DNA of 36,356 nucleotides from Candidatus Nealsonbacteria bacterium CG23_combo_of_CG06-09_8_20_14_all_40_13 (GCA_002771215.1 PCRM01000034.1:1-36356), one strand, 5' to 3'. Numbered from the stretch's first letter, positions 11,730 through 26,915 are shown. The notes: a model not told the origin generated them from the sequence alone. Program-made: numbers and translations.

Positions 11730-13469
11730 TTAGTGAAGGCGGGCTTTAATTCTTCTTACTCCGGAGGCGGCGGATTTTTCAGATAGAATTTTAAAATGAC
11801 CGAGTTCTCCAGTATTTTTGACATGAGGGCCAGCGCAGAGTTCTTTGGAATAGCCGCCGATATCGTATAAAGTCACTTTATCAGCATATTTTTGCTCAAA
11901 CAGCGCTATAGCGCCTTCTTTTTTTGCTTGGCTGACGGTCGTCAATTTGCTTGTGACCGTCAACTTATCCTTAATTTTTTGATTAACTATTTGTTCTATT
12001 TTGCGTAGTTGTTCATCAGTTAGTTCTTGCGGGTGAGTAAAATCAAAACGCAAAACCTCACCAGTAACATCTTGTCCCGCTTGTTTTGCATGCGGCCCTA
12101 AAACTTCGCGTAAAGCTTGATGGAGCAGATGGCAGGCAGTGTGCAGTTTTGGGTTGGCCGAGCCGCTGGAAACTTTTTGGGACTTTCTGGCAACTTCTCG
12201 TTGCATCTCCATTGCTTTTGCAAAATCTTCTCTGGCAACTTTGAAATTATCTTTTTGCGCCAGCTCTTCAGTAAGTTCTATCGGAAAACCAAAAGTATCC
12301 GCAAGTTTGAAAGCAGCGGCGCCAGAAATAATTTTATCTTTTTGCGATTTGTTTTTGATTTTTTCAAATTCTGCCAATCCTCTCTGCAATGTTTTCAAAA
12401 ATCTGTCCTCCTCGCCCGCCAGCACTGATATAATTTGCTCTTTATTTTTAACCAAATTAGGATAAAATTCACCTAATTGCGCAATAACTACTTGCGCTAA
12501 TTCTTTTAAAAAATCTTTCTTAAGTTTCAGTAAGAAACCGTGCAAAATAGCGCGGCGGATGAGGCGACGCAGGACATAACCTTGCTGTTTGTTGGCTGGT
12601 AAAATTCCCTCGGCCGACAAAAAAGTGATACCACGAATGTGGTCAGCTAAAATCAAGGCGCTGCGCGGCAAATCAACATTCTTACTCTCTATTAATAAAT
12701 TGTCAATTTTTGCCAAAATCGGCGAGTAAATATCAGTTTGAAAAACGCTTTTTTCCCCCTGCATCACCGCCGCTAATCTTTCCAAACCCATTCCCGTATC
12801 AACGCCTTTTAAAGCCAGCGGTTTTAATCGGCGATTTTTATCGCAATAGTACTGGTTAAAAACTAAATTCCAAACTTCAATCCCATCAACAAAAATTTCC
12901 AAAGTCGGACCGCATGGGCCTTCATCGCCGGTTGGACCCCAGAAATTATCCTCCGAAGAGCCCATTAAAATTTGCTTATCGTCAAAAATTTGCCTGGCTG
13001 ACGTAAACGATTCGCTGTCTAAAGGCAAATTTTTATTCTTGTCGCCCGGGAAAATGGTCACGGTGATTCTTTGTGCATTAATTTTTAAATCTTTGGTCAG
13101 AAATTCGTAAGTTAAATCAATGGCTTCTTTTTTAAAGTAACTGCCGAAGGATTTATCCTGCCTCGCACCGAGGCTCGGCACAAGGTGAGCATAGCCGAAG
13201 GAAAAATTGCCCATCATTTCAAAAAAAGTCAGATGGCTGTTGTCGCCGACTTCTTCAATATCGCTGGTACGAAAACAGGGTTGAACCGTAACAACTTTAC
13301 CATATTTCGGTTTGACCTCACCGGAAAACCAATCTTTAAACTGCTGCATTCCCGCCGTAGTTAACAAAACTGAAGGGTCTGTAGGAATTAAAGAAGAAGC
13401 GGGCAAAAGTTTATGTCCTTTGCTTTGAAAAAACTTAATAAATTTTTCTCTTAAAATTTTACTTTGCAT
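11730..13469 (-). CDS. alaS: Alanine--tRNA ligase, compact form without C-Ala domain (start ATG 13469)
   Basis: DPSVLLTTAGMQQFK, QPCFRT, HLTFFEMMGNFSFG, GPCGP, DTGMGLERL and ADHIR; editing motifs HTACHLLH and ELCAGPHV. Confidence 0.97.
   Translation of the reverse strand: MQSKILREKFIKFFQSKGHKLLPASSLIPTDPSVLLTTAGMQQFKDWFSGEVKPKYGKVVTVQPCFRTSDIEEVGDNSHLTFFEMMGNFSFGYAHLVPSLGARQDKSFGSYFKKEAIDLTYEFLTKDLKINAQRITVTIFPGDKNKNLPLDSESFTSARQIFDDKQILMGSSEDNFWGPTGDEGPCGPTLEIFVDGIEVWNLVFNQYYCDKNRRLKPLALKGVDTGMGLERLAAVMQGEKSVFQTDIYSPILAKIDNLLIESKNVDLPRSALILADHIRGITFLSAEGILPANKQQGYVLRRLIRRAILHGFLLKLKKDFLKELAQVVIAQLGEFYPNLVKNKEQIISVLAGEEDRFLKTLQRGLAEFEKIKNKSQKDKIISGAAAFKLADTFGFPIELTEELAQKDNFKVAREDFAKAMEMQREVARKSQKVSSGSANPKLHTACHLLHQALREVLGPHAKQAGQDVTGEVLRFDFTHPQELTDEQLRKIEQIVNQKIKDKLTVTSKLTTVSQAKKEGAIALFEQKYADKVTLYDIGGYSKELCAGPHVKNTGELGHFKILSEKSAASGVRRIKARLH
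13143..13202 (-). repeat. In-frame nested REP insertion (51 nt, 17 aa) in alaS
   Basis: 9-bp direct repeat TCCTTCGGC flanks TATGCTCA[CCTTGTGCCGAGCCTCGGTGCGAGG]CAGGATAAA. Confidence 0.8.
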
Positions 13470-13506
13470 AATTGACAATTTTTGGACAATGTGGGCTATA
13501 GCCAAG

Positions 13507-13685
13507 AAGCGAGCCTGTAGCCCCGAAGGGGCACAGCTGATTCCGTACCAAAGCAAATCTTGTCGCAGATAAAACTCGAAGGAGCGAGCCGCTAGCCCAT
13601 AAAGTTGGCTAGCAACCGCACAGGAAGACCGAGCAGCAGCGAGGGCGCTCCTGTAAAGGGGACAACTTTTGGGCGCGGCGAGCGA
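13507..13685. repeat. Dispersed structured element, copy 1
   Basis: Shares AGCGAGCCGCTAG, ACAGGA, CGCTCCTGTA and GGCGCGGCGAGCGA with 27297-27390, and AAGCGAGCCTG and AAGCAAA..TGTCGCAGA with 30258-30423. Confidence 0.75.
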
Positions 13686-13689
13686 TATC

Positions 13690-14316
13690 TTATTTATAAA
13701 ACAACAACCCTTTTTTAACTTTTTCCCAAAGCGTCGGCTGGGGAGGCACTACCACCCTTAAGTTAACATCCTGTCCTTCTTGAAGTACCGGATAAAGTGT
13801 AACATACATGCTTTCTGCTTTTTTAACAGAAGCCACAAAACCTTTTGTTTCTCCAGCCGGCGCGCCTCTGGCCGCAAGCCACCTATCCGCCACCGCCGGC
13901 CCGCCGTTGTAGGCGGCTAAAAGATAGTCAGTATTGCCGCCATATTTGTCAGACAAATTTTTCAAATACCAACTGCCATAGCGAATGTTTGTCTCGGGGT
14001 CATAAAGCATATTGATTTGAAAATGCTCGCCCAATTTTCCAGCTATGGAACGGCCGGTGCCAGGCATAATCTGCATCAAGCCGATGGCACCCGCGCGCGA
14101 AACCGAATCGGAATTGTAGCGCGATTCCTGAAAAATAACTGCTGCAATCAAAGTTGCGCGAATATTAAAACGCTTGGAATATTTTAAAATGTATTCGTCG
14201 TATTTCAGTGGATAAACCGCCTCTCCCCAAATTTGCGGAAAATAAAAATAAAAAATTAAACCCGTCACCAGCAGAAAACTAAAAATTATGCTAATTTTAA
14301 CTATTGTTTTTTTCAT
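13690..14316 (-). CDS. Lytic transglycosylase (SLT domain), membrane anchored
   Basis: AVIFQESRY, GAIGLMQIMP, NIRYGSWYL and AAYNGG motifs. Confidence 0.93.
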   Translation of the reverse strand: MKKTIVKISIIFSFLLVTGLIFYFYFPQIWGEAVYPLKYDEYILKYSKRFNIRATLIAAVIFQESRYNSDSVSRAGAIGLMQIMPGTGRSIAGKLGEHFQINMLYDPETNIRYGSWYLKNLSDKYGGNTDYLLAAYNGGPAVADRWLAARGAPAGETKGFVASVKKAESMYVTLYPVLQEGQDVNLRVVVPPQPTLWEKVKKGLLFYK

Positions 14317-14332
14317 AAATTTACTTTAAAAT

Positions 14333-15106
14333 CTACCCTGCTAACCAGCCACCGTCAATAACCACCGTTGAACCAGTCATATAAGAAGAGGAATCCGAAG
14401 CCAAAAACAAGACTAATTCTGATACTTCTTCAGGTTTACCTATTCGATGAAGGGGTACTCTAGCCAATAGCCCCTCCAACGTTTTAGGGTCTTTTTTGAC
14501 TGGTTCAATCATTGGTGTCTCAATCATGCCTGGGGCAATGGCATTAACTCGAATTTTAAAAGGGGCAAGTTCAACCGCCAGCGCTTCAGTTAAAGCGACT
14601 ATTCCACCTTTGGAGGCGCAATAATGGGCAATATTTGGAAAACCAATCCCCTGCTGCCCCATGGCCACTGAAGAAATATTGACAATTACTCCTCCACCTT
14701 TTTCCTTCATTACTAAAGCCGCTGCCTGGGAACAGAAAAATTGACCTTTAAGATTGATATCTAATGTTCTATCCCATTCTTCCTCTGTTAATTGTAAAAA
14801 TGGCTTAAACTGCGCTATCCCAGCGTTGTTGATTAAAATATCCAAACGACCAAATTGTTCAACAATTTTTTTAACGACTTGTTCGACGTCCGTTTTTTTA
14901 GAAACATCTAATTTTAGAGCAAGTGCTTGGCCACCTTGTGATTTAATTTCGTCAGCCACTTTTTGGCAATCAGCCAAATCAATATCAGTGACAATTACCT
15001 TAACTCCTTTTTTGGCTAAAGCTAAAACATGGGTTCTACCCATACCTCTTCTTGCCCCAGTAATTAGAGCCACTTTACCTTTTAAATCTTCCATTTTTAC
15101 CTCCAT
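14333..15106 (-). CDS. SDR family oxidoreductase (FabG-like)
   Basis: TGARRGMG, NNAG, YCASK and NAIAPG motifs. Confidence 0.93.
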   Translation of the reverse strand: MEVKMEDLKGKVALITGARRGMGRTHVLALAKKGVKVIVTDIDLADCQKVADEIKSQGGQALALKLDVSKKTDVEQVVKKIVEQFGRLDILINNAGIAQFKPFLQLTEEEWDRTLDINLKGQFFCSQAAALVMKEKGGGVIVNISSVAMGQQGIGFPNIAHYCASKGGIVALTEALAVELAPFKIRVNAIAPGMIETPMIEPVKKDPKTLEGLLARVPLHRIGKPEEVSELVLFLASDSSSYMTGSTVVIDGGWLAG

Positions 15107-15138
15107 AGTTTTTAACTTTTACTTTTTAATTTTGACCC

Positions 15139-15183
15139 ATTCGACTTCATCCAGGGTCAATCCTGAGTTTATCGAAGGATTGA
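15139..15183. repeat. REP-like TTCGAC...CTGAG...TCGAAG element (relatives at 16095-16139 and 16246-16290)
   Basis: TTCGACttcatccagggTCAATCCTGAGtttaTCGAAGGATTGA matches TTCGACtcaactcagcaTCAATCCTGAGcttgcCGAATGGATTGA. Confidence 0.65.
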
Positions 15184-15198
15184 GTTTAGCGAAGCGCT

Positions 15199-15243
15199 TG
15201 GTGCCGGGGGCGGGAGTCGAACCCACACGAGGTTTTACCCTCA
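15199..15243 (-). pseudogene. 3' half of a tRNA-Leu (att-like remnant)
   Basis: GAGGGTAAAACCTC variable arm, GTGGGTTCGACTCCCGC T arm and CCCCGGCACCA; no D arm or anticodon arm upstream. Confidence 0.85.
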
Positions 15244-15306
15244 TTTGGTAGCTGTTTCTGATTAAATTTTATCAGATTTTTCTTAAGAGAGCAAATATTT
15301 TTGGAT

Positions 15307-15341
15307 AAAAAAAGGGCCCCGGCGCGCAAGCGCTCGGGGCC
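15307..15341 (-). terminator. Intrinsic terminator of the 15398..15868 gene
   Basis: GGCCCCG...CGGGGCC stem with a T7 tract on the minus strand. Confidence 0.8.
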
Positions 15342-15397
15342 TGTACCAGAGGGGGATTTCCGTTTGGAAGTCCCTTTGGGTTTGGAGGGTAAGAGGG

Positions 15398-15868
15398 TTA
15401 GTCGCAGATGGCCTCAATTTCGGCCTTTTCTAGACGGCAGGTAGAGACCCAACGATCGTTCTCCCACTTTTTCTGGTAGTAGAGCTCATGGGTCACTTCA
15501 CCGATCTTAATCTTAGCCATCTCCGGCTCCCACATACATTGGTTGTTATAGAGCCAACATTGACTTTCGATCTTGATGTACTTCCCATCGACTTGACCAA
15601 CCCATGTCTTGATGTGGACGATACGGGCGACCTCGTCGTGGAGAACACACCTATATTCTTCCTCCAACATTTCTTCGTACATCTCGAACATCGAGCGAGC
15701 TTGAAAAACAGGCTCAGCAACAATGTCGGTCTGTGCCCATTGAAGGTCACAACCGAAGATTTGTCGAAGAGCTTCCCGAGTCATCTCCATCGGAAACATG
15801 ACCGAGTAGCCGAGCGAGAACTTCTGCTTGGAATCCCTTTCCTGTTTTGCCTCTAACATAGTTTTCAT
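15398..15868 (-). CDS. Hypothetical protein (islet cargo)
   Basis: 156 aa ORF with CAGGAG RBS, own promoter and terminator; no family recognised. Confidence 0.7.
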   Translation of the reverse strand: MKTMLEAKQERDSKQKFSLGYSVMFPMEMTREALRQIFGCDLQWAQTDIVAEPVFQARSMFEMYEEMLEEEYRCVLHDEVARIVHIKTWVGQVDGKYIKIESQCWLYNNQCMWEPEMAKIKIGEVTHELYYQKKWENDRWVSTCRLEKAEIEAICD

Positions 15869-16062
15869 CTCCTGTTTCAGGGTTCGCCCAAGGTTATCCT
15901 CGAGCGGCTACCGTCTCGGTAGCGATTTAGCAAAGAAAATAGATTTCTCAACCAAGTCGCTACCGAGAAAAACATAAAAACGCTACCCACGAAGAGATTA
16001 GGAGGATATTTTAAGGTTCAAACCTGTTTCAAGCGAAAACTATCTTTACTGAAAACTAATTA

Positions 16063-16091
16063 ATTATAGCACAGAAAAGAGGGTTTGTCAA
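16063..16091 (-). promoter_or_regulatory. Consensus sigma70 promoter
   Basis: TTGACA (16091-16086)-17-TATAAT (16068-16063) with TG extension. Confidence 0.8.
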
Positions 16092-16342
16092 TAGTTCGAC
16101 ATCGCTCACTATTGACACTGACCAAAGTCGAAGTGTCAAGTATAAATTGGGTAAATTCAAGAAAAAAAACAGAAATTCCCAAAAATTTCTGCAACAAATG
16201 ATATGAAAAAATTTTCTTTTACTAATTCAAACCGCCAATTGATGCTTCGACTCAACTCAGCATCAATCCTGAGCTTGCCGAATGGATTGATTTTTTGTAG
16301 TTTTTACTTTTTAACTTTTACTTTTTACTTTAGCGAAGCGCT

Positions 16343-16431
16343 TGGTGCCGGGGGTGGGATTCGAACCCACACGGAGTTTTACCTCCAACGGGTTTTAAGC
16401 CCGTATCGTCTACCAATTCCGACACCCCGGC
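16343..16431 (-). tRNA. tRNA-Leu(TAA)
   Basis: GCCGGGG acceptor, ACGGG-CT TAA AA-CCCGT anticodon arm, long variable arm, GGTTCGAATCC, CCA. Confidence 0.97.
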
Positions 16432-17388
16432 TCAAATTACCTGCCATTTACCTTCTTTATAATTTAACCTTCCCTCAACTGTAAATCCAGCTGCCTTTTT
16501 ATGCCCGCCGCCGCCGAAAATCTTGGCAATTTGCGAAATATCAATATTATCATCCTCAGTCCGCAACGAGGCGCGCACTTTGCCATCGGCAGTTTCTGAA
16601 AAAAATATGGCTATTTTAGTATCGGCAATACTGCCGATTAAATTGACAATACCGGCCATATCAATTTCGCAAGCACGGCAATCTTGCAAATCTTTCCGCG
16701 TTATAACTGAAGTGCACAAACCGTATTGTTGATTTTGCCATATTCGAGATAAAGCGATTCCCCACAATTTCAAGGCAGTAACTGATTTATTCACAGATAT
16801 GTTTTTAGCAATCTGCTTTAAATTGGCGCCATACGACAAAAGTTTACCCGCAATATCTAAAACTTTTTCACTCGTATTGGAATGTTTAAATCCGCCAGTA
16901 TCTGTGTATAATCCGGTTAAAAGGCACGTGGCCAAATTTTTATCAAAGTCAATATTTATTTCTTGAAAAAAATCAAACAGTATTTCTGCCGTTGAAGATG
17001 CTTCCTGACAAACAATATTCAAATTGGCAATTTTGTGAAGGTCATTTTTAGGATGATGGTCAATGTTTAAAAGATGTCTTTTATGTTTGGCGTACTGCAA
17101 AAATCTTTGAGGAAAGCCTGTTCTTTTCAAATCGCCGCAGTCTAAAACAATAACCAAATCATAGTCGCCCTGCAAAAAGTCATTTTGAATTTTGCAAGCG
17201 TTGGGTAGGAAAGAAAAAAGTGCGGGAATCTCGTCTTTGCCAACAATATCAGCGTCTTTGCCCATTTTTTTCAAAACAGCATATAAAGCAAGAGATGAAG
17301 CAATAGTGTCACCATCGGGGCTTTTATGGATGACAAGAAGAATTTTTTCGCCAGAGGTAAGATATTTTAGGATTTTGTCTGCGGGCAT
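16432..17388 (-). CDS. nrnA: DHH/DHHA1 bifunctional oligoribonuclease/PAP phosphatase
   Basis: HKSPDGD, VLDC, IDHH, TDTGGF, SLR and GGGGHKKAAG motifs. Confidence 0.93.
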   Translation of the reverse strand: MPADKILKYLTSGEKILLVIHKSPDGDTIASSLALYAVLKKMGKDADIVGKDEIPALFSFLPNACKIQNDFLQGDYDLVIVLDCGDLKRTGFPQRFLQYAKHKRHLLNIDHHPKNDLHKIANLNIVCQEASSTAEILFDFFQEINIDFDKNLATCLLTGLYTDTGGFKHSNTSEKVLDIAGKLLSYGANLKQIAKNISVNKSVTALKLWGIALSRIWQNQQYGLCTSVITRKDLQDCRACEIDMAGIVNLIGSIADTKIAIFFSETADGKVRASLRTEDDNIDISQIAKIFGGGGHKKAAGFTVEGRLNYKEGKWQVI

Positions 17389-17858
17389 AAAGCAATAACC
17401 TTTCTCTCCTCCTCTTGCGGCAAATCGTTTTTGGCAATTTTAAAAACAGCTTCTTTGGGCAAACTAACACCTTCCATCTTACAAAATTCGTCAAGGGCGC
17501 CCAAATCCATTGGAATAACAATTTTGGGGTCAATTTGGTTAATCACCTCAATCGCCAACTTAGGAGATAAAGCTTTGTCTTTGCCAACTGGCACCATTAA
17601 AATATCCACACCGTTAATCTTGTCAACTTCAGAATCTGTTAAGGTGCGCGAGAGTTGCCCCAAATGTGCCACGGTCACTTCTTCTAAATTAAAAATGTAA
17701 ATACCGTCGTTTAAACCATCAATGAAAATGCCGGCAATCTCATATTCGCCCGGGCCAGCAAGCTCAACATCATTGACACGGGTTGGCTCACCCGTGTAAA
17801 CTGTGGCTTTTTTGTCTTTAATTTCGAAATTATCTTTACCTAAGTATTTAATCTGCAT
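17367..17858 (-). CDS. Shortened MBL-fold (Lactamase_B_3-like) protein
   Basis: MQIKYLG, GPGEYEIAG, HLG, DILMVPVG and PKIVIPM motifs; no HxHxDH motif. Confidence 0.75.
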   Translation of the reverse strand: MQIKYLGKDNFEIKDKKATVYTGEPTRVNDVELAGPGEYEIAGIFIDGLNDGIYIFNLEEVTVAHLGQLSRTLTDSEVDKINGVDILMVPVGKDKALSPKLAIEVINQIDPKIVIPMDLGALDEFCKMEGVSLPKEAVFKIAKNDLPQEEERKVIALCPQTKS

Positions 17859-17878
17859 AACTTTAAGCTTATTTTAGC

Positions 17879-17910
17879 AAAAAAAGAAGGCCGGCGCAAG
17901 TGCGCCGGCC
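17879..17910 (-). terminator. Intrinsic terminator downstream of the PHP gene
   Basis: GGCCGGCGC/GCGCCGGCC stem followed by TTCTTTTTTT on the minus strand. Confidence 0.75.
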
Positions 17911-17923
17911 GGAAAAATGAGAA

Positions 17924-18031
17924 TAAACTACTCCGCAGCAAGCTGCGGAGTATCCCCAAAGGGGCGAGTTTGTTTTTAAATAGGCTTCATCCTCGCAGCA
18001 AGCTACAAGGTATTCAGCCTCTTAAAAATAA
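17924..18031. mobile_element. ~105-bp two-palindrome element resembling joined IS200/IS605-family ends (PATE-like), copy 1
   Basis: TACTCCGCAGC AA GCTGCGGAGTA and CCTCGCAGCAAGCTACAAGG hairpins; homologous to 26811-26915 including TAAACTACTC and GCCTCTT.AAAATAA termini. Confidence 0.7.
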
Positions 18032-18032
18032 C

Positions 18033-19661
18033 TCATTTGAAGCCATCGCCGATGTTTTCATAGGTGACTGTTTGAACCAACTCGCCATCAAGCCAAAATT
18101 TAATTCGCCAAGTGCCCGATACCCAGTCAAAATCAAAACCAGATGGTTTGAAGTATATCACTTCCGAAAATTGTTCGTCGTAGGAGTTAATATATTTTGA
18201 ATCATCCGTTGAACAACTCACACTACCGTCAGGACGAATAAAGACGGTTTTCCAAGTGTGAAGCCCGGGAGACAAATTGGCAAAATATAAATAAGCATAA
18301 ACGCAACTTTGCCAATAAAAACGATTAGTGTAATATTTCGGTCTGTCTTTTGGATAACTTTCATCCAGCCATTGATAAGGATCATTTTGCCCAAGAACAA
18401 TATTCACTGATGGTTCATTTGGCGCCCCCTCATTCTCATTCAAGCTTTCCTCCAGCGCTTTCCTCTCTTCCTCTGACATTTCATCAACGTAAATTTGGAT
18501 TGGTGAGGTAATCAGCTGGCCTGGGCTGTAGATGACATAGTTGTAAGCGCCGGGCTTTACTTGATCGGTGAAGGAGTATTCGACCTCACGAGTAACCAAG
18601 GGTATGACTGGAATGGTTCTGCGCGAATCAGGCACTTCAACGCCATCGCGGTACAAAACAATGGTCTTGGAATCATTAATTGGTCGCGGATAGACCAGAC
18701 GGAAATTAAAATCTACCTTTTGGTAGACGGTATTGATGCTTGCCTCATCGGTGCCAATTTGATAGGATAGTCCTTCCAATTGTCCTTCCCAAATTGAGGC
18801 GTAAGTATTTCCGCGAGAAATTGCCCAAGTCAAAAAGCCAGTAGCCAATTTATCTGCGTTAATGAAAGTAAAATAACCATCAGTGTCTACCCCATGACTG
18901 TCGTTGCCGCAGGTTACCCCGACAAGAAGGTTATTTTGGAGAAATTTCATATACAAATCGAGGTCTTTTTGTTCGTCAGAGCTGCCATTGAATGTTTCAA
19001 TAGTAGCGACGGGTGCAAACTCAGGGTAACTCTCGACCAACTCTTCCGGATTAGTCAATATTTTTTCTTTATACTTATCAAAATCAAAAGGCGGATTCCA
19101 CAAGGAAGGATGGGCTAAAACAATCACCGGGATATAATCTTTGGAAAAATCAAAATCCACAGAGGACTCTAAAGCTTTCGCCCGTTTAGCAACTTGATAT
19201 GAAAACATAATCTCATCGTAGCCGGCTTCCGGCAAGTACCAGTATTTACTATTTTCCCCTTGCTCCTTATCCGCAGCCAATACTAAAGCATGACACTTTA
19301 ACGAAGTATCTTTAAGGGGAAATTCGAAACCACCAATCATTAGCGGTGAACCCTTGCCAGAAAGCCAGTAGCAGCGTGAGATATAATCGTCGTAAGGATT
19401 ATTATTGTCATGAAGATGACCTTTGGCCACGCCATGCCAGCCAACCCCTTGCCCAAAACAATCAGCGTGTTCGGTCATAAAAATAAACTTCACATTATGC
19501 TTTTGAGCACCTTGCCAAATCGAATCAAGGTTATAAGTTCCGTCAGAATATTTGGAGTGAAAATGGACGATGCCTTTGAACCACTCCGCCGATGCCGCCT
19601 TTGACAGCACACCCACTAGTACCAATACGCCAAATACAACCAAAACTACTCTTTTCTTCAA
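18033..19661 (-). CDS. Secreted PHP-domain metallohydrolase with C-terminal Ig-like domains
   Basis: Signal peptide, HFHSKYSDG, TEH, AHP, ETFN and GNDSH motifs; C-terminal beta-rich GTWRIKFWLDG region. Confidence 0.8.
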   Translation of the reverse strand: MKKRVVLVVFGVLVLVGVLSKAASAEWFKGIVHFHSKYSDGTYNLDSIWQGAQKHNVKFIFMTEHADCFGQGVGWHGVAKGHLHDNNNPYDDYISRCYWLSGKGSPLMIGGFEFPLKDTSLKCHALVLAADKEQGENSKYWYLPEAGYDEIMFSYQVAKRAKALESSVDFDFSKDYIPVIVLAHPSLWNPPFDFDKYKEKILTNPEELVESYPEFAPVATIETFNGSSDEQKDLDLYMKFLQNNLLVGVTCGNDSHGVDTDGYFTFINADKLATGFLTWAISRGNTYASIWEGQLEGLSYQIGTDEASINTVYQKVDFNFRLVYPRPINDSKTIVLYRDGVEVPDSRRTIPVIPLVTREVEYSFTDQVKPGAYNYVIYSPGQLITSPIQIYVDEMSEEERKALEESLNENEGAPNEPSVNIVLGQNDPYQWLDESYPKDRPKYYTNRFYWQSCVYAYLYFANLSPGLHTWKTVFIRPDGSVSCSTDDSKYINSYDEQFSEVIYFKPSGFDFDWVSGTWRIKFWLDGELVQTVTYENIGDGFK

Positions 19662-26810: not shown

Positions 26811-26915
26811 TAAACTACTCTGCGGCTTGCCGCAGAGTATCCTACGAAAAGTTTTTTTCCAAATAGGCCTTCGTCCCTGTGGCAAGCCACAGGGTATTCG
26901 GCCTCTTGAAAATAA
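26811..26915. mobile_element. PATE-like two-palindrome element, copy 2
   Basis: TACTCTGCGGC TT GCCGCAGAGTA and CCCTGTGGC AA GCCACAGGG; compensatory changes relative to the copy at 17924. Confidence 0.7.

What the first reader, a model, noticed from the sequence alone, without database searches (positions are those of the whole stretch)
13143..13202. Nested REP-in-REP insertion adds 17 residues inside the catalytic domain of AlaRS
Seen: the usual GNFSFGxYFK reads GNFSFG-YAHLVPSLGARQDKSFG-SYFK. The DNA shows a 9-bp duplication (TCCTTCGGC) around CTATGCTCAGGATAAA-type REP sequence (24 nt added), itself interrupted at a duplicated CA by a 25-nt hairpin (27 nt added). Both steps keep the frame. 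Known: Rickettsia palindromic elements create peptide inserts in this way. Inference: two successive insertions tolerated in an essential enzyme just after motif 2.
Basis: partly seen in the sequence, partly recalled or inferred. Interest (0 to 1): 0.7.

Follow-up and report, generated by a model that had tools for sequence, protein, structure and literature searches.

The report
Nested hairpin repeats translated inside AlaRS
A tiny groundwater bacterium carries, in frame inside its only alanyl-tRNA synthetase gene, one unit of a common hairpin repeat with a second, rarer hairpin nested in it; the pair is most likely read as a floppy 17-residue loop, a kind of event already known from Rickettsia and other bacteria.

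Summary
alaS (window 11730-13469, minus strand) reads GNFSFG-YAHLVPSLGARQDKSFG-SYFK: 51 extra bases bounded by two copies of TCCTTCGGC. Independent assemblies of two other sequencing runs span it with no difference.

The nested build is also real. The outer 24 bases are one unit of a hairpin family with a fixed 14-base loop (TTCGRC-N3-GCTCA) and covarying stems. This genome holds about 20 such units, and 94 of 161 genomes of its class have the motif. The inner 27 bases (a 25-base palindrome plus CA) are a discrete module. I found it in 4 genome and 20 metagenome loci of other phyla, and an orthologous filled and empty pair differs by exactly this module. It has no second copy in this genome and none in 561 relatives.

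The "9-bp duplication" is the repeat unit's own 5' end, which coincides with the Ser-Phe-Gly codons, so I infer capture by short homology, not a transposase footprint. Two successive hits inside alaS are possible but not shown, and no 8-residue allele was found.

The AlphaFold model places the insert in a low-confidence loop at a site where other lineages also carry inserts. This is a new member of a known kind, of moderate interest.

The parts
11730..13469 (-). alaS coding sequence (580 aa from the ATG at 13469; a short AlaRS form with catalytic, tRNA-recognition and editing/SAD regions)
   Evidence: ORF, translation. Pfam tRNA-synt_2c E 5e-126 and tRNA_SAD E 1.4e-17; solved AlaRS chains, E down to 8e-87. 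The start codon is my choice, by alignment with relatives.
13194..13202 (-). First TCCTTCGGC. It encodes Ser-Phe-Gly of GNFSFG, and it is also the 5' stem (TCC) and loop start (TTCGGC) of the repeat unit.
   Evidence: the closest class relative has TCCTTCGGA here; the same block is in other units.
13186..13193 (-). TATGCTCA, the rest of the 14-base conserved loop TTCGGC-TAT-GCTCA
   Evidence: loop consensus TTCGRY-N3-4-GCTCA. C30:3220 has TTCGACTATGCTCA; the TAT variant is in G094 and G101.
13161..13185 (-). 25-base G+C-rich palindrome (11-bp stem with three G-T wobble pairs, 3-base loop). It is the inner hairpin module.
   Evidence: 4 genome and 20 metagenome loci with the same hairpin; 36 bases at 97.2% identity to L032, L036 and L037.
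13159..13160 (-). CA tail of the module (25 + 2 = 27 bases); CA also stands just before the hairpin
   Evidence: CA follows the hairpin in 15 of 15 non-redundant loci listed and precedes it in 13 of 15.
13152..13158 (-). GGATAAA: 3' stem of the outer unit (GGA) and a spacer
   Evidence: The C19 tandem unit ends ...GCTCAGGATTTTA.
13143..13151 (-). Second TCCTTCGGC (a second Ser-Phe-Gly), followed by AGT TAC TTT AAA (SYFK)
   Evidence: Either copy may be the gene's original.
16095..16132 (.). Two further units of the outer hairpin family in the window: 16095-16108 (+), with a 9-bp stem, and 16119-16132 (-)
16246..16282 (.). A head-to-head pair of units of the same family: 16246-16259 (+) and 16267-16282 (-)
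15141..15180 (.). Another pair of units of the same family; the clear unit is 15164-15176 (-)

Best explanation
The single-copy alaS gene of this small groundwater bacterium of the Candidate Phyla Radiation (CPR, Patescibacteria) carries a fixed, in-frame 51-base insert made of two selfish hairpin modules.

The outer module is one 24-base unit of a hairpin family. The family has a conserved 14-base loop (TTCGRC-N3-GCTCA) closed by a short, covarying stem. It is resident in this genome and common in its class.

The inner module is a 27-base unit, a 25-base palindrome plus CA. It is nested between the last A of that loop and the 3' stem. It is a discrete insertion unit also seen in other phyla.

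The unit's own 5' end (TCCTTCGRC) is the same as the codons for Ser-Phe-Gly of the GNFSFG motif. I therefore infer that the repeat was copied or recombined into alaS through this 8-9-base identity, by template switching or short-homology recombination with a unit or a tandem array of units. That leaves what looks like a 9-bp duplication.

The insert is translated as a 17-residue disordered loop between the strand that ends in GNFSFG and the next helix. Many lineages tolerate extra residues at this spot.

Shown: the sequence, its presence in independent assemblies, the two repeat families, the nesting, the filled and empty pair, and the tolerance of the site. Inferred: the insertion mechanism, the order of the two steps, translation, and harmlessness.
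For: The insert is real and fixed in what I could see.

Outer family:
- Own genome: 33 matches to TTCGRC-N2-4-GCTCAGGA at up to 2 substitutions, against 7-17 in five shuffles.
- Stems of 3-9 bp differ in sequence around the same loop: CAATAG/CTATTG, TTGATGC/GCATCAA, GCCC/GGGC, ATCC/GGAT.
- C19:10583-10622 is a 2 x 24-base tandem, TCCTTCGACAAGCTCAGGATTTTA.
- 94 of 161 class genomes have CCTTCGACNNNGCTCAGG at up to 1 mismatch. G000 has 10. The reversed control gives 5 hits in all.
- 34 stretches of viral contigs carry the motif.

Inner module:
- The degenerate 25-mer finds 4 loci in species genomes (Nitrospiria, Planctomycetota) and 20 in metagenomes.
- Flanks that were not in the search pattern also match the window: GCTCA + hairpin + CAGGAT, 36 bases at 97.2%.
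- The outer sequence without the hairpin (CTYGCTCAGGAYTYCGC) occurs 7 times in two Nitrospiria genomes, against 1 control hit.
- L048 (filled) and L063 (empty) are orthologous: 79.8% over 1016 bases. They differ at the site by the 27 bases.
- L044 has the module in the loop of a hairpin that this genome holds empty, beside its IS200 tnpA.

Homology-guided origin:
- TCCTTCGGC or TCCTTCGAC stands upstream of the hairpin in L034 and family A.
- The nearest class relative has TCCTTCGGA for Ser-Phe-Gly.

Lineage-specific gain: P0001 is sister to the insert-less P0003 (support 99), inside a 13-row clade with 11 insert-less rows.

Tolerance:
- The AlphaFold2 model has mean pLDDT 87.9 with residues 95-112 below 50, between strand 83-92 and helix 114-128.
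- Inserts of 5-30 residues sit at the same spot in 9 of 19 class genomes with a readable motif and in P0004, P0037 and P0099.
- P0001 keeps every column that is invariant among 70 AlaRS.
- No second intact alaS is in the genome.
Against: - The inner hairpin has no second copy in this genome (blastn-short; nhmmer, next best E 11). It has none in 161 class or 400 phylum genomes. So a local source or machinery is not seen. The genome is 94% complete in 46 contigs, and repeats are often lost at contig ends.
- No transposase lies within 1.5 kb of the hairpin in the 38 outside loci held when that search ran, hairpin-bearing and hairpin-less alike.
- The AAA between GGAT and the second TCCTTCGGC is not explained by a simple switch at the short homology.
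- A true 9-bp target duplication cannot be excluded from one copy.
- Codon use and G+C of the insert are not extreme: rank 46 of 565 windows; G+C 0.57 against a maximum elsewhere in the gene of 0.67.
- No RNA or protein data exist for this organism, so translation of the loop is inferred.
Confidence: 0.7

Rival explanations
1. One reading: two separate insertions happened inside alaS. First came the 24-base outer unit (an 8-residue allele), later the 27-base hairpin at the CA.
For: The outer unit is of the short-loop type typical of this class. The TAT variant is also at C30:3220 and in G094 and G101. Nitrospiria units instead carry a long variable hairpin in the loop. So the composite was built on a local-type unit. 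The hairpin is a discrete indel elsewhere, and both steps keep the frame.
Against: No 8-residue allele appears among the 109 of 121 related proteins, or the 20 of 30 class loci, in which the motif could be read. No hairpin-less contig of this organism was found. At least 10 other units in the genome offer the same GCTCA|GG site and none is filled. The composite could equally have formed elsewhere and been copied in whole.
Confidence: 0.4
2. A single capture of a ready-made composite from foreign DNA, such as DNA taken up from a neighbouring Nitrospiria- or Planctomycetota-like cell, by short homology at TCCTTCGGC.
For: The same GCTCA-hairpin-CAGGAT composite exists in other phyla. The hairpin is not found in 561 Patescibacteria genomes. 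L034 has TCCTTCGGC 11 bases before the hairpin.
Against: The window's outer unit looks like the local short-loop type, not the Nitrospiria type. No donor with the window's exact flanks (TAT, AAA) was found.
Confidence: 0.2
3. A 42-base miniature transposon inserted by a transposase, making a true 9-bp target-site duplication.
For: Perfect 9-bp direct repeats flank 42 bases. The genome encodes an IS200-type transposase.
Against: The '9-bp target' is itself part of the repeat unit in copies elsewhere. No terminal inverted repeats are present, by my reading. From my knowledge, IS200/IS605 elements make no duplications. 42 bases is below the usual size of such elements.
Confidence: 0.08
4. Assembly or binning artefact, or an old lineage-specific loop whose likeness to repeats is chance.
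For: Other lineages have unrelated loops at the same site, often starting with Tyr as here.
Against: Independent contigs span it exactly. 36 bases at 97% identity to outside loci, with matching flanks that were not in the search pattern. The nearest relatives lack any insert.
Confidence: 0.03

Closest known systems
Rickettsia palindromic elements (RPE-1, RPE-4, RPE-6), as cited in Di Nocera et al. 2013, PMC3733652 (passages read); the original papers are recalled, not read
   Same: Short palindromic repeats that sit in frame inside known protein genes, are translated, and add residues without destroying the protein.
   Different: No sequence relation was tested. The outer unit here is defined by a conserved loop with variable stems, not a conserved palindrome. 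The inner hairpin is single-copy in this genome. The host is a free-living-sized CPR bacterium, not Rickettsia.
Intragenic REPs of the GTAG- and CGTC-tagged super-families (Di Nocera, De Gregorio and Rocco 2013, BMC Genomics 14:522, PMC3733652; abstract and passages read)
   Same: 20-40 bp hairpins, sometimes inside coding regions, sometimes with a short unpaired tail (there CCA, here CA), often in dimers.
   Different: Neither a GTAG nor a CGTC tag is present in the 25-mer or the outer unit, by reading the sequence. The stem is 11 bp and the loop 3 bases, against 8-9 bp stems and 4-5 base loops for the CGTC families. No REP-associated transposase is nearby.
IS200/IS605 ends-only derivatives (PATEs) and single-strand transposition by Y1 transposases (PMC6006769, abstract seen in a listing only; otherwise my knowledge)
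   Same: Hairpin-based, no terminal inverted repeats, insertion next to a short fixed sequence (here after CA or TA). This genome has an IS200 tnpA. In L044 the hairpin module sits in the loop of a homologous IS200-type end hairpin.
   Different: No transposase is linked to the module in any of the 38 outside loci held when the search ran. 27 bases is far smaller than any described PATE. Activity was not tested.
Mitochondrial GC clusters and 'byp' elements of yeasts, and the T4 gene 60 coding gap (recalled, no call)
   Same: Short G+C-rich hairpin inserts inside essential coding sequences, bounded by matching codons (here GGC...GGC, 51 bases apart).
   Different: Those are skipped by the ribosome and usually break the frame or carry a stop. 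This insert is in frame with no stop, so no bypass is needed, and there is no evidence for one.

Membership tests
In-frame selfish palindromic repeats (RPE-like) | The sequence is a member of a dispersed repeat family in the same genome | tested here: met
   Met for the outer unit: about 20 copies in the own genome, 33 hits against 7-17 in shuffles. Not met for the inner hairpin: alaS is its only copy.
In-frame selfish palindromic repeats (RPE-like) | It lies inside a recognisable protein gene, keeps the frame, and has no stop | tested here: met
   51 bases, 17 codons, intact 580-aa AlaRS
In-frame selfish palindromic repeats (RPE-like) | The encoded peptide lies in a tolerant surface region | tested here: inconclusive
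   pLDDT is below 50 for residues 95-112, between a strand and a helix. Independent inserts occur at the same site. No solvent exposure or distance to the active site was computed.
In-frame selfish palindromic repeats (RPE-like) | Sequence homology to a named RPE family | not tested
   No RPE sequence was at hand
GTAG/CGTC-tagged REPs (Di Nocera 2013) | A GTAG or CGTC tetranucleotide at one end of the palindrome | tested here: not met
   Read from the sequence: the 25-mer starts CCTTG and ends GAGG. The outer unit has no such tag.
GTAG/CGTC-tagged REPs (Di Nocera 2013) | Many copies per genome | tested here: not met
   The inner hairpin has 1-2 copies in each genome that holds it
Miniature inverted-repeat transposable element | Terminal inverted repeats, plus a target-site duplication of host sequence | tested here: not met
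   No terminal inverted repeats in the 42-mer, by my reading. The 9-mer is part of the repeat unit elsewhere.
IS200/IS605-type ends-only element | Insertion 3' of a fixed short sequence, with no duplication | tested here: inconclusive
   CA precedes the hairpin in 13 of 15 loci and TA in 1. Two bases are too few to be diagnostic.
IS200/IS605-type ends-only element | A cognate Y1 transposase whose ends carry the same hairpin | tested here: not met
   The tnpA of C38 has different end hairpins. No tnpA was found in L032-L069.
Programmed translational bypass (gene 60 / byp type) | Matching take-off and landing codons around a hairpin | tested here: met
   GGC at 13194-13196 and at 13143-13145; hairpin 8 bases after the first
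Programmed translational bypass (gene 60 / byp type) | A stop codon or frame break that makes bypass necessary; a product that lacks the gap | tested here: not met
   TAT follows the first GGC, and the 51 bases are in frame with no stop. The product is not testable with these tools.

The most novel reading that the evidence does not exclude
The 27-base hairpin (25-base palindrome plus CA) may itself be a mobile unit, perhaps the smallest known. On this reading it spreads across phyla by nesting after a CA in the single-stranded loops of other hairpin repeats, as a parasite of parasites. It is seen in the conserved-loop units of Nitrospiria and Planctomycetota, in an IS200-type end hairpin (L044), and once inside an essential CPR gene. 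A bolder but much less likely reading (about 2%) is that the matching GGC codons and the hairpin let ribosomes hop over the 51 bases.
Probability: 0.3. Interest if true: 0.65.

Novelty: new member of a known kind. Interest (0 to 1): 0.45.

Why it matters
It adds a clean case of selfish hairpin DNA being absorbed into the catalytic domain of an essential, single-copy enzyme in a genome of only about 0.65 Mb.

It also shows that an apparent target-site duplication can simply be the repeat's own end matching conserved codons. That is a caution for reading such insertions.

Two sequence families were found that my searches met in no Rfam model or paper. One is a hairpin with a fixed TTCGRC-N3-GCTCA loop and covarying stems, common in CPR bacteria and present in Nitrospiria and on viral contigs. 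The other is a 27-base hairpin that nests in other hairpins across phyla. Whatever recognises that loop (a protein, or the RNA form) is unknown and testable.

Tried and rejected
- A fuzzy regex scan of the genome timed out. I replaced it with blastn-short.
- The joined outer 15-mer gave only a chance-level hit in the window: 1 hit at 3 mismatches, 1.25 expected. The looser loop motif was needed to see the family.
So near-identical alleles could not be listed.
- Rfam gave no family at the hairpin or the outer units in 20 filled loci, 6 empty loci, L070 and L044, or window 12500-18500.
- The hairpin has no match in viral contigs or plasmids.
- A first pattern for the Nitrospiria outer element with a fixed 21-base gap gave one unhelpful hit.
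- Papers: peptide words of the translated repeats, DNA words of the loop, and CPR plus palindromic repeat terms returned nothing relevant.
- No RNA holder is listed among the sequencing runs.
- The 'joints' have sides of only 21-26 bases with other letters between. I read them as AlaRS genes of other organisms, not empty alleles.
- Codon use and G+C do not mark the insert as clearly foreign.
- Earlier scan notes by sequence gave nothing.
- The careful tree did not finish, so the quick IQ-TREE result was used.
- I considered and rejected an intein, an intron and vector or adapter contamination. The insert is too short for the first two. For the third, the flanks vary naturally among copies.

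Full report
**1. What is there.**
On the minus strand the window encodes a 580-residue alanyl-tRNA synthetase, 11730-13469. Pfam gives tRNA-synt_2c at E 5e-126 and tRNA_SAD at E 1.4e-17. Solved AlaRS chains match at E down to 8e-87.

At 13143-13202 the coding strand reads TCCTTCGGC-TATGCTCA-CCTTGTGCCGAGCCTCGGTGCGAGG-CA-GGATAAA-TCCTTCGGC. The usual GNFSFGxYFK therefore becomes GNFSFG-YAHLVPSLGARQDKSFG-SYFK. The alignment to a solved AlaRS (9jc7) shows a 17-residue gap between GNFSF and GDYFK.

**2. Is it real?**
The genome is a 654-kb, 46-contig, 94%-complete assembly. Sources name related AlaRS proteins Berkelbacteria or Minisyncoccales.
- 23 public groundwater or aquifer runs hold the 601-base stretch, 11 of them with all sampled words.
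- Contigs of runs X13 and X19 cross the insert without a difference or gap.
- X16 and X23 contigs end inside it, at low depth.
- No indel was reported.
- The 'joints' in that call have 21-26-base sides and foreign letters between them. I read them as AlaRS genes of other organisms.

So the insert is not an artefact, and no empty allele of this organism was seen.

**3. When did it arise?**
- The nearest protein outside the window's own cluster, P0003 (64% identity), has GNFSFG-SYFK. That is exactly the empty site.
- 104 of 107 other motif-bearing relatives have no insert.
- In a quick maximum-likelihood tree of 58 rows, P0001 is sister to P0003 (support 99), inside a 13-row clade with 11 insert-less rows.
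- Unrelated inserts of 5-30 residues stand at the same spot in 9 of 19 other class genomes whose motif could be read, and in P0004, P0037 and P0099. They are scattered over the tree.

The site is therefore an insertion hot spot, and this insert is a gain on the window's own branch.

**4. The inner hairpin.**
It has no second copy in the genome: blastn-short best other hits are 11-15 bases, and an nhmmer profile finds alaS at E 1.4e-11 with the next hit at E 11. It is not found in 161 class genomes or 400 phylum genomes at up to 3 mismatches.

A degenerate pattern of the 25-mer found 4 loci in species genomes (two Nitrospiria, two Planctomycetota) and 20 in metagenomes. It found none on viral contigs or plasmids.

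In eleven of these loci the flanks, which were not part of the pattern, also match the window: GCTCA, hairpin, CAGGAT, 36 bases at 97.2%. Homology is therefore certain.

In 15 non-redundant loci the hairpin is followed by CA in 15 and preceded by CA in 13. For this count I left out the duplicates L043 and L052 and the nine loci of a divergent high-G+C family.

Each genome that holds the hairpin has only 1-2 copies.

**5. The hairpin is a discrete module.**
- In two Nitrospiria genomes the flanking sequence occurs without it: CTYGCTCAGGAYTYCGC gives 7 hits against 1 control hit.
- L048 (filled) and L063 (empty) are orthologous, at 79.8% over 1016 bases. They read ...CTTGCTCA[27 bases]GGATT... 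and ...CTTGCTCAGGATT.... MAFFT misplaced the gap, so this pairing is by eye.
- In L044 the module lies in the loop of CCCCAATGC-CA-AGCATTGGG. The window's own genome holds the same hairpin empty at C38:33145-33165, 40 bases upstream of an IS200-type tnpA (Y1_Tnp, E 4e-37).

**6. The outer unit.**
Removing the module leaves TCC-TTCGGCTATGCTCA-GGA-TAAA. This is one unit of a hairpin family with a conserved loop, TTCGRY-N3-4-GCTCA, and stems that differ from copy to copy while staying complementary (CAATAG/CTATTG, TTGATGC/GCATCAA, GCCC/GGGC, ATCC/GGAT).
- The genome has 33 matches at up to 2 substitutions, against 7-17 in shuffles. 28 of them have stems of 3-9 bp.
- There is a 2 x 24-base tandem at C19:10583-10622.
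- Five units lie in the window itself, at 15.16 kb and 16.1-16.3 kb.
- 94 of 161 class genomes have the motif; reversed controls give 5 hits in all.
- 34 stretches of viral contigs have it with ATCC/GGAT stems.
- Nitrospiria copies carry an extra variable hairpin inside the loop.
- Most own-genome copies lie outside long open frames.
- No Rfam family matches, and four literature searches found nothing.

**7. The '9-bp duplication'.**
TCCTTCGGC is the unit's 5' stem plus the first six loop bases. The same block stands before the hairpin in L034 (exact) and in family A (TCCTTCGAC). It also starts each unit of the C19 tandem.

It is equally the codon string for Ser-Phe-Gly. The nearest class relative has TCCTTCGGA there.

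It is very unlikely that host codons would supply nine bases of the repeat consensus by chance. I therefore infer that this identity guided the event: template switching or short-homology recombination with a unit or tandem array. A transposase duplicating its target is the less likely reading. The AAA spacer is not explained.

**8. One step or two?**
The window's outer unit is of the local short-loop type, which speaks for assembly of the composite in this lineage. But no 8-residue allele and no other filled unit were found. Whether the hairpin entered a unit already in alaS, or a composite formed elsewhere and was then copied in, stays open. Import of a foreign composite is a third possibility.

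**9. Consequence.**
- An AlphaFold2 model built on 70 sequences has mean pLDDT 87.9. Residues 95-112 are below 50, between strand 83-92 and helix 114-128.
- P0001 keeps all columns invariant among the 70 AlaRS.
- The genome has no second intact alaS.

I infer a translated, disordered, tolerated loop. Position 'just after motif 2' is my reading of the alignment, with the motif name recalled from memory.

**10. Comparison and verdict.**
In-frame palindromic repeats are known from Rickettsia and from intragenic REPs (PMC3733652, passages read). Earlier notes of this scan list many such cases in aminoacyl-tRNA synthetase genes, and another in-frame palindromic element in this same genome; I did not check those notes.

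This case is a new member of that kind. Its distinguishing features are a conserved-loop outer unit, a cross-phylum nested 27-base module, and a pseudo target duplication.

Noticed in passing
window 15141-15180, 16095-16132, 16246-16282; G000 C19:10583-10622 and about 15 other places: A hairpin family with a fixed 14-base loop (TTCGRY-N3-4-GCTCA) and covarying stems of 3-9 bp, often in head-to-head pairs. It is in 94 of 161 class genomes, in Nitrospiria (with an extra hairpin in the loop, often behind promoter-like boxes and in front of genes) and on 34 stretches of viral contigs. It is in no Rfam family, and my searches found no paper on it.
   Followed up: partly
G000 C38:32650-33170 (L070:1652-2166): An IS200-type element: tnpA (138 aa, Y1_Tnp E 4e-37) with end hairpins CCCCAATGC/GCATTGGGG and CCCCACCGC/GCGGTGGGG. 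A conserved-loop unit lies about 50 bases beyond the left end (C38:33216-33229).
   Followed up: partly
L044:960-1070: A transposase-less relative of that IS200 left end, upstream of an endonuclease III-like gene, with the 27-base hairpin module nested in its loop.
   Followed up: partly
L038-L040, L047, L049-L051, L054, L055 (metagenome contigs, G+C 0.67-0.74): A different repeat of about 83 bases bounded by CTAG, holding a variant of the same palindrome (…GGCACAAGG). It is tandem in L039.
   Followed up: no
window 15136-15245 versus 16240-16390; tRNA-Leu(taa) at 16343-16431 (-): A pair of conserved-loop hairpins plus the 3' half of tRNA-Leu is duplicated about 1.1 kb apart, around an ORF at 15398-15868. 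This is the pattern left by an element integrated into a tRNA gene.
   Followed up: partly
L035, L043, L045, L046, L052 (Nitrospiria): The outer element plus hairpin sits between a promoter-like TTGCTT-N18-TAGAAT and an ORF that I read as thiD-like. It is a possible leader RNA. No Rfam match.
   Followed up: no
class relatives (G003, G014, G016, G030 near residue 195; G007, G014, G018, G029 near residue 372): Their AlaRS matches are split, although the open frames run through without stops. This suggests further in-frame insertion hot spots in this enzyme.
   Followed up: no
window 15316-15340, 17889-17952, 26816-26839: G+C-rich hairpins with GCAA or CTTG loops stand between genes. They are terminator-like or another repeat class.
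   Followed up: no
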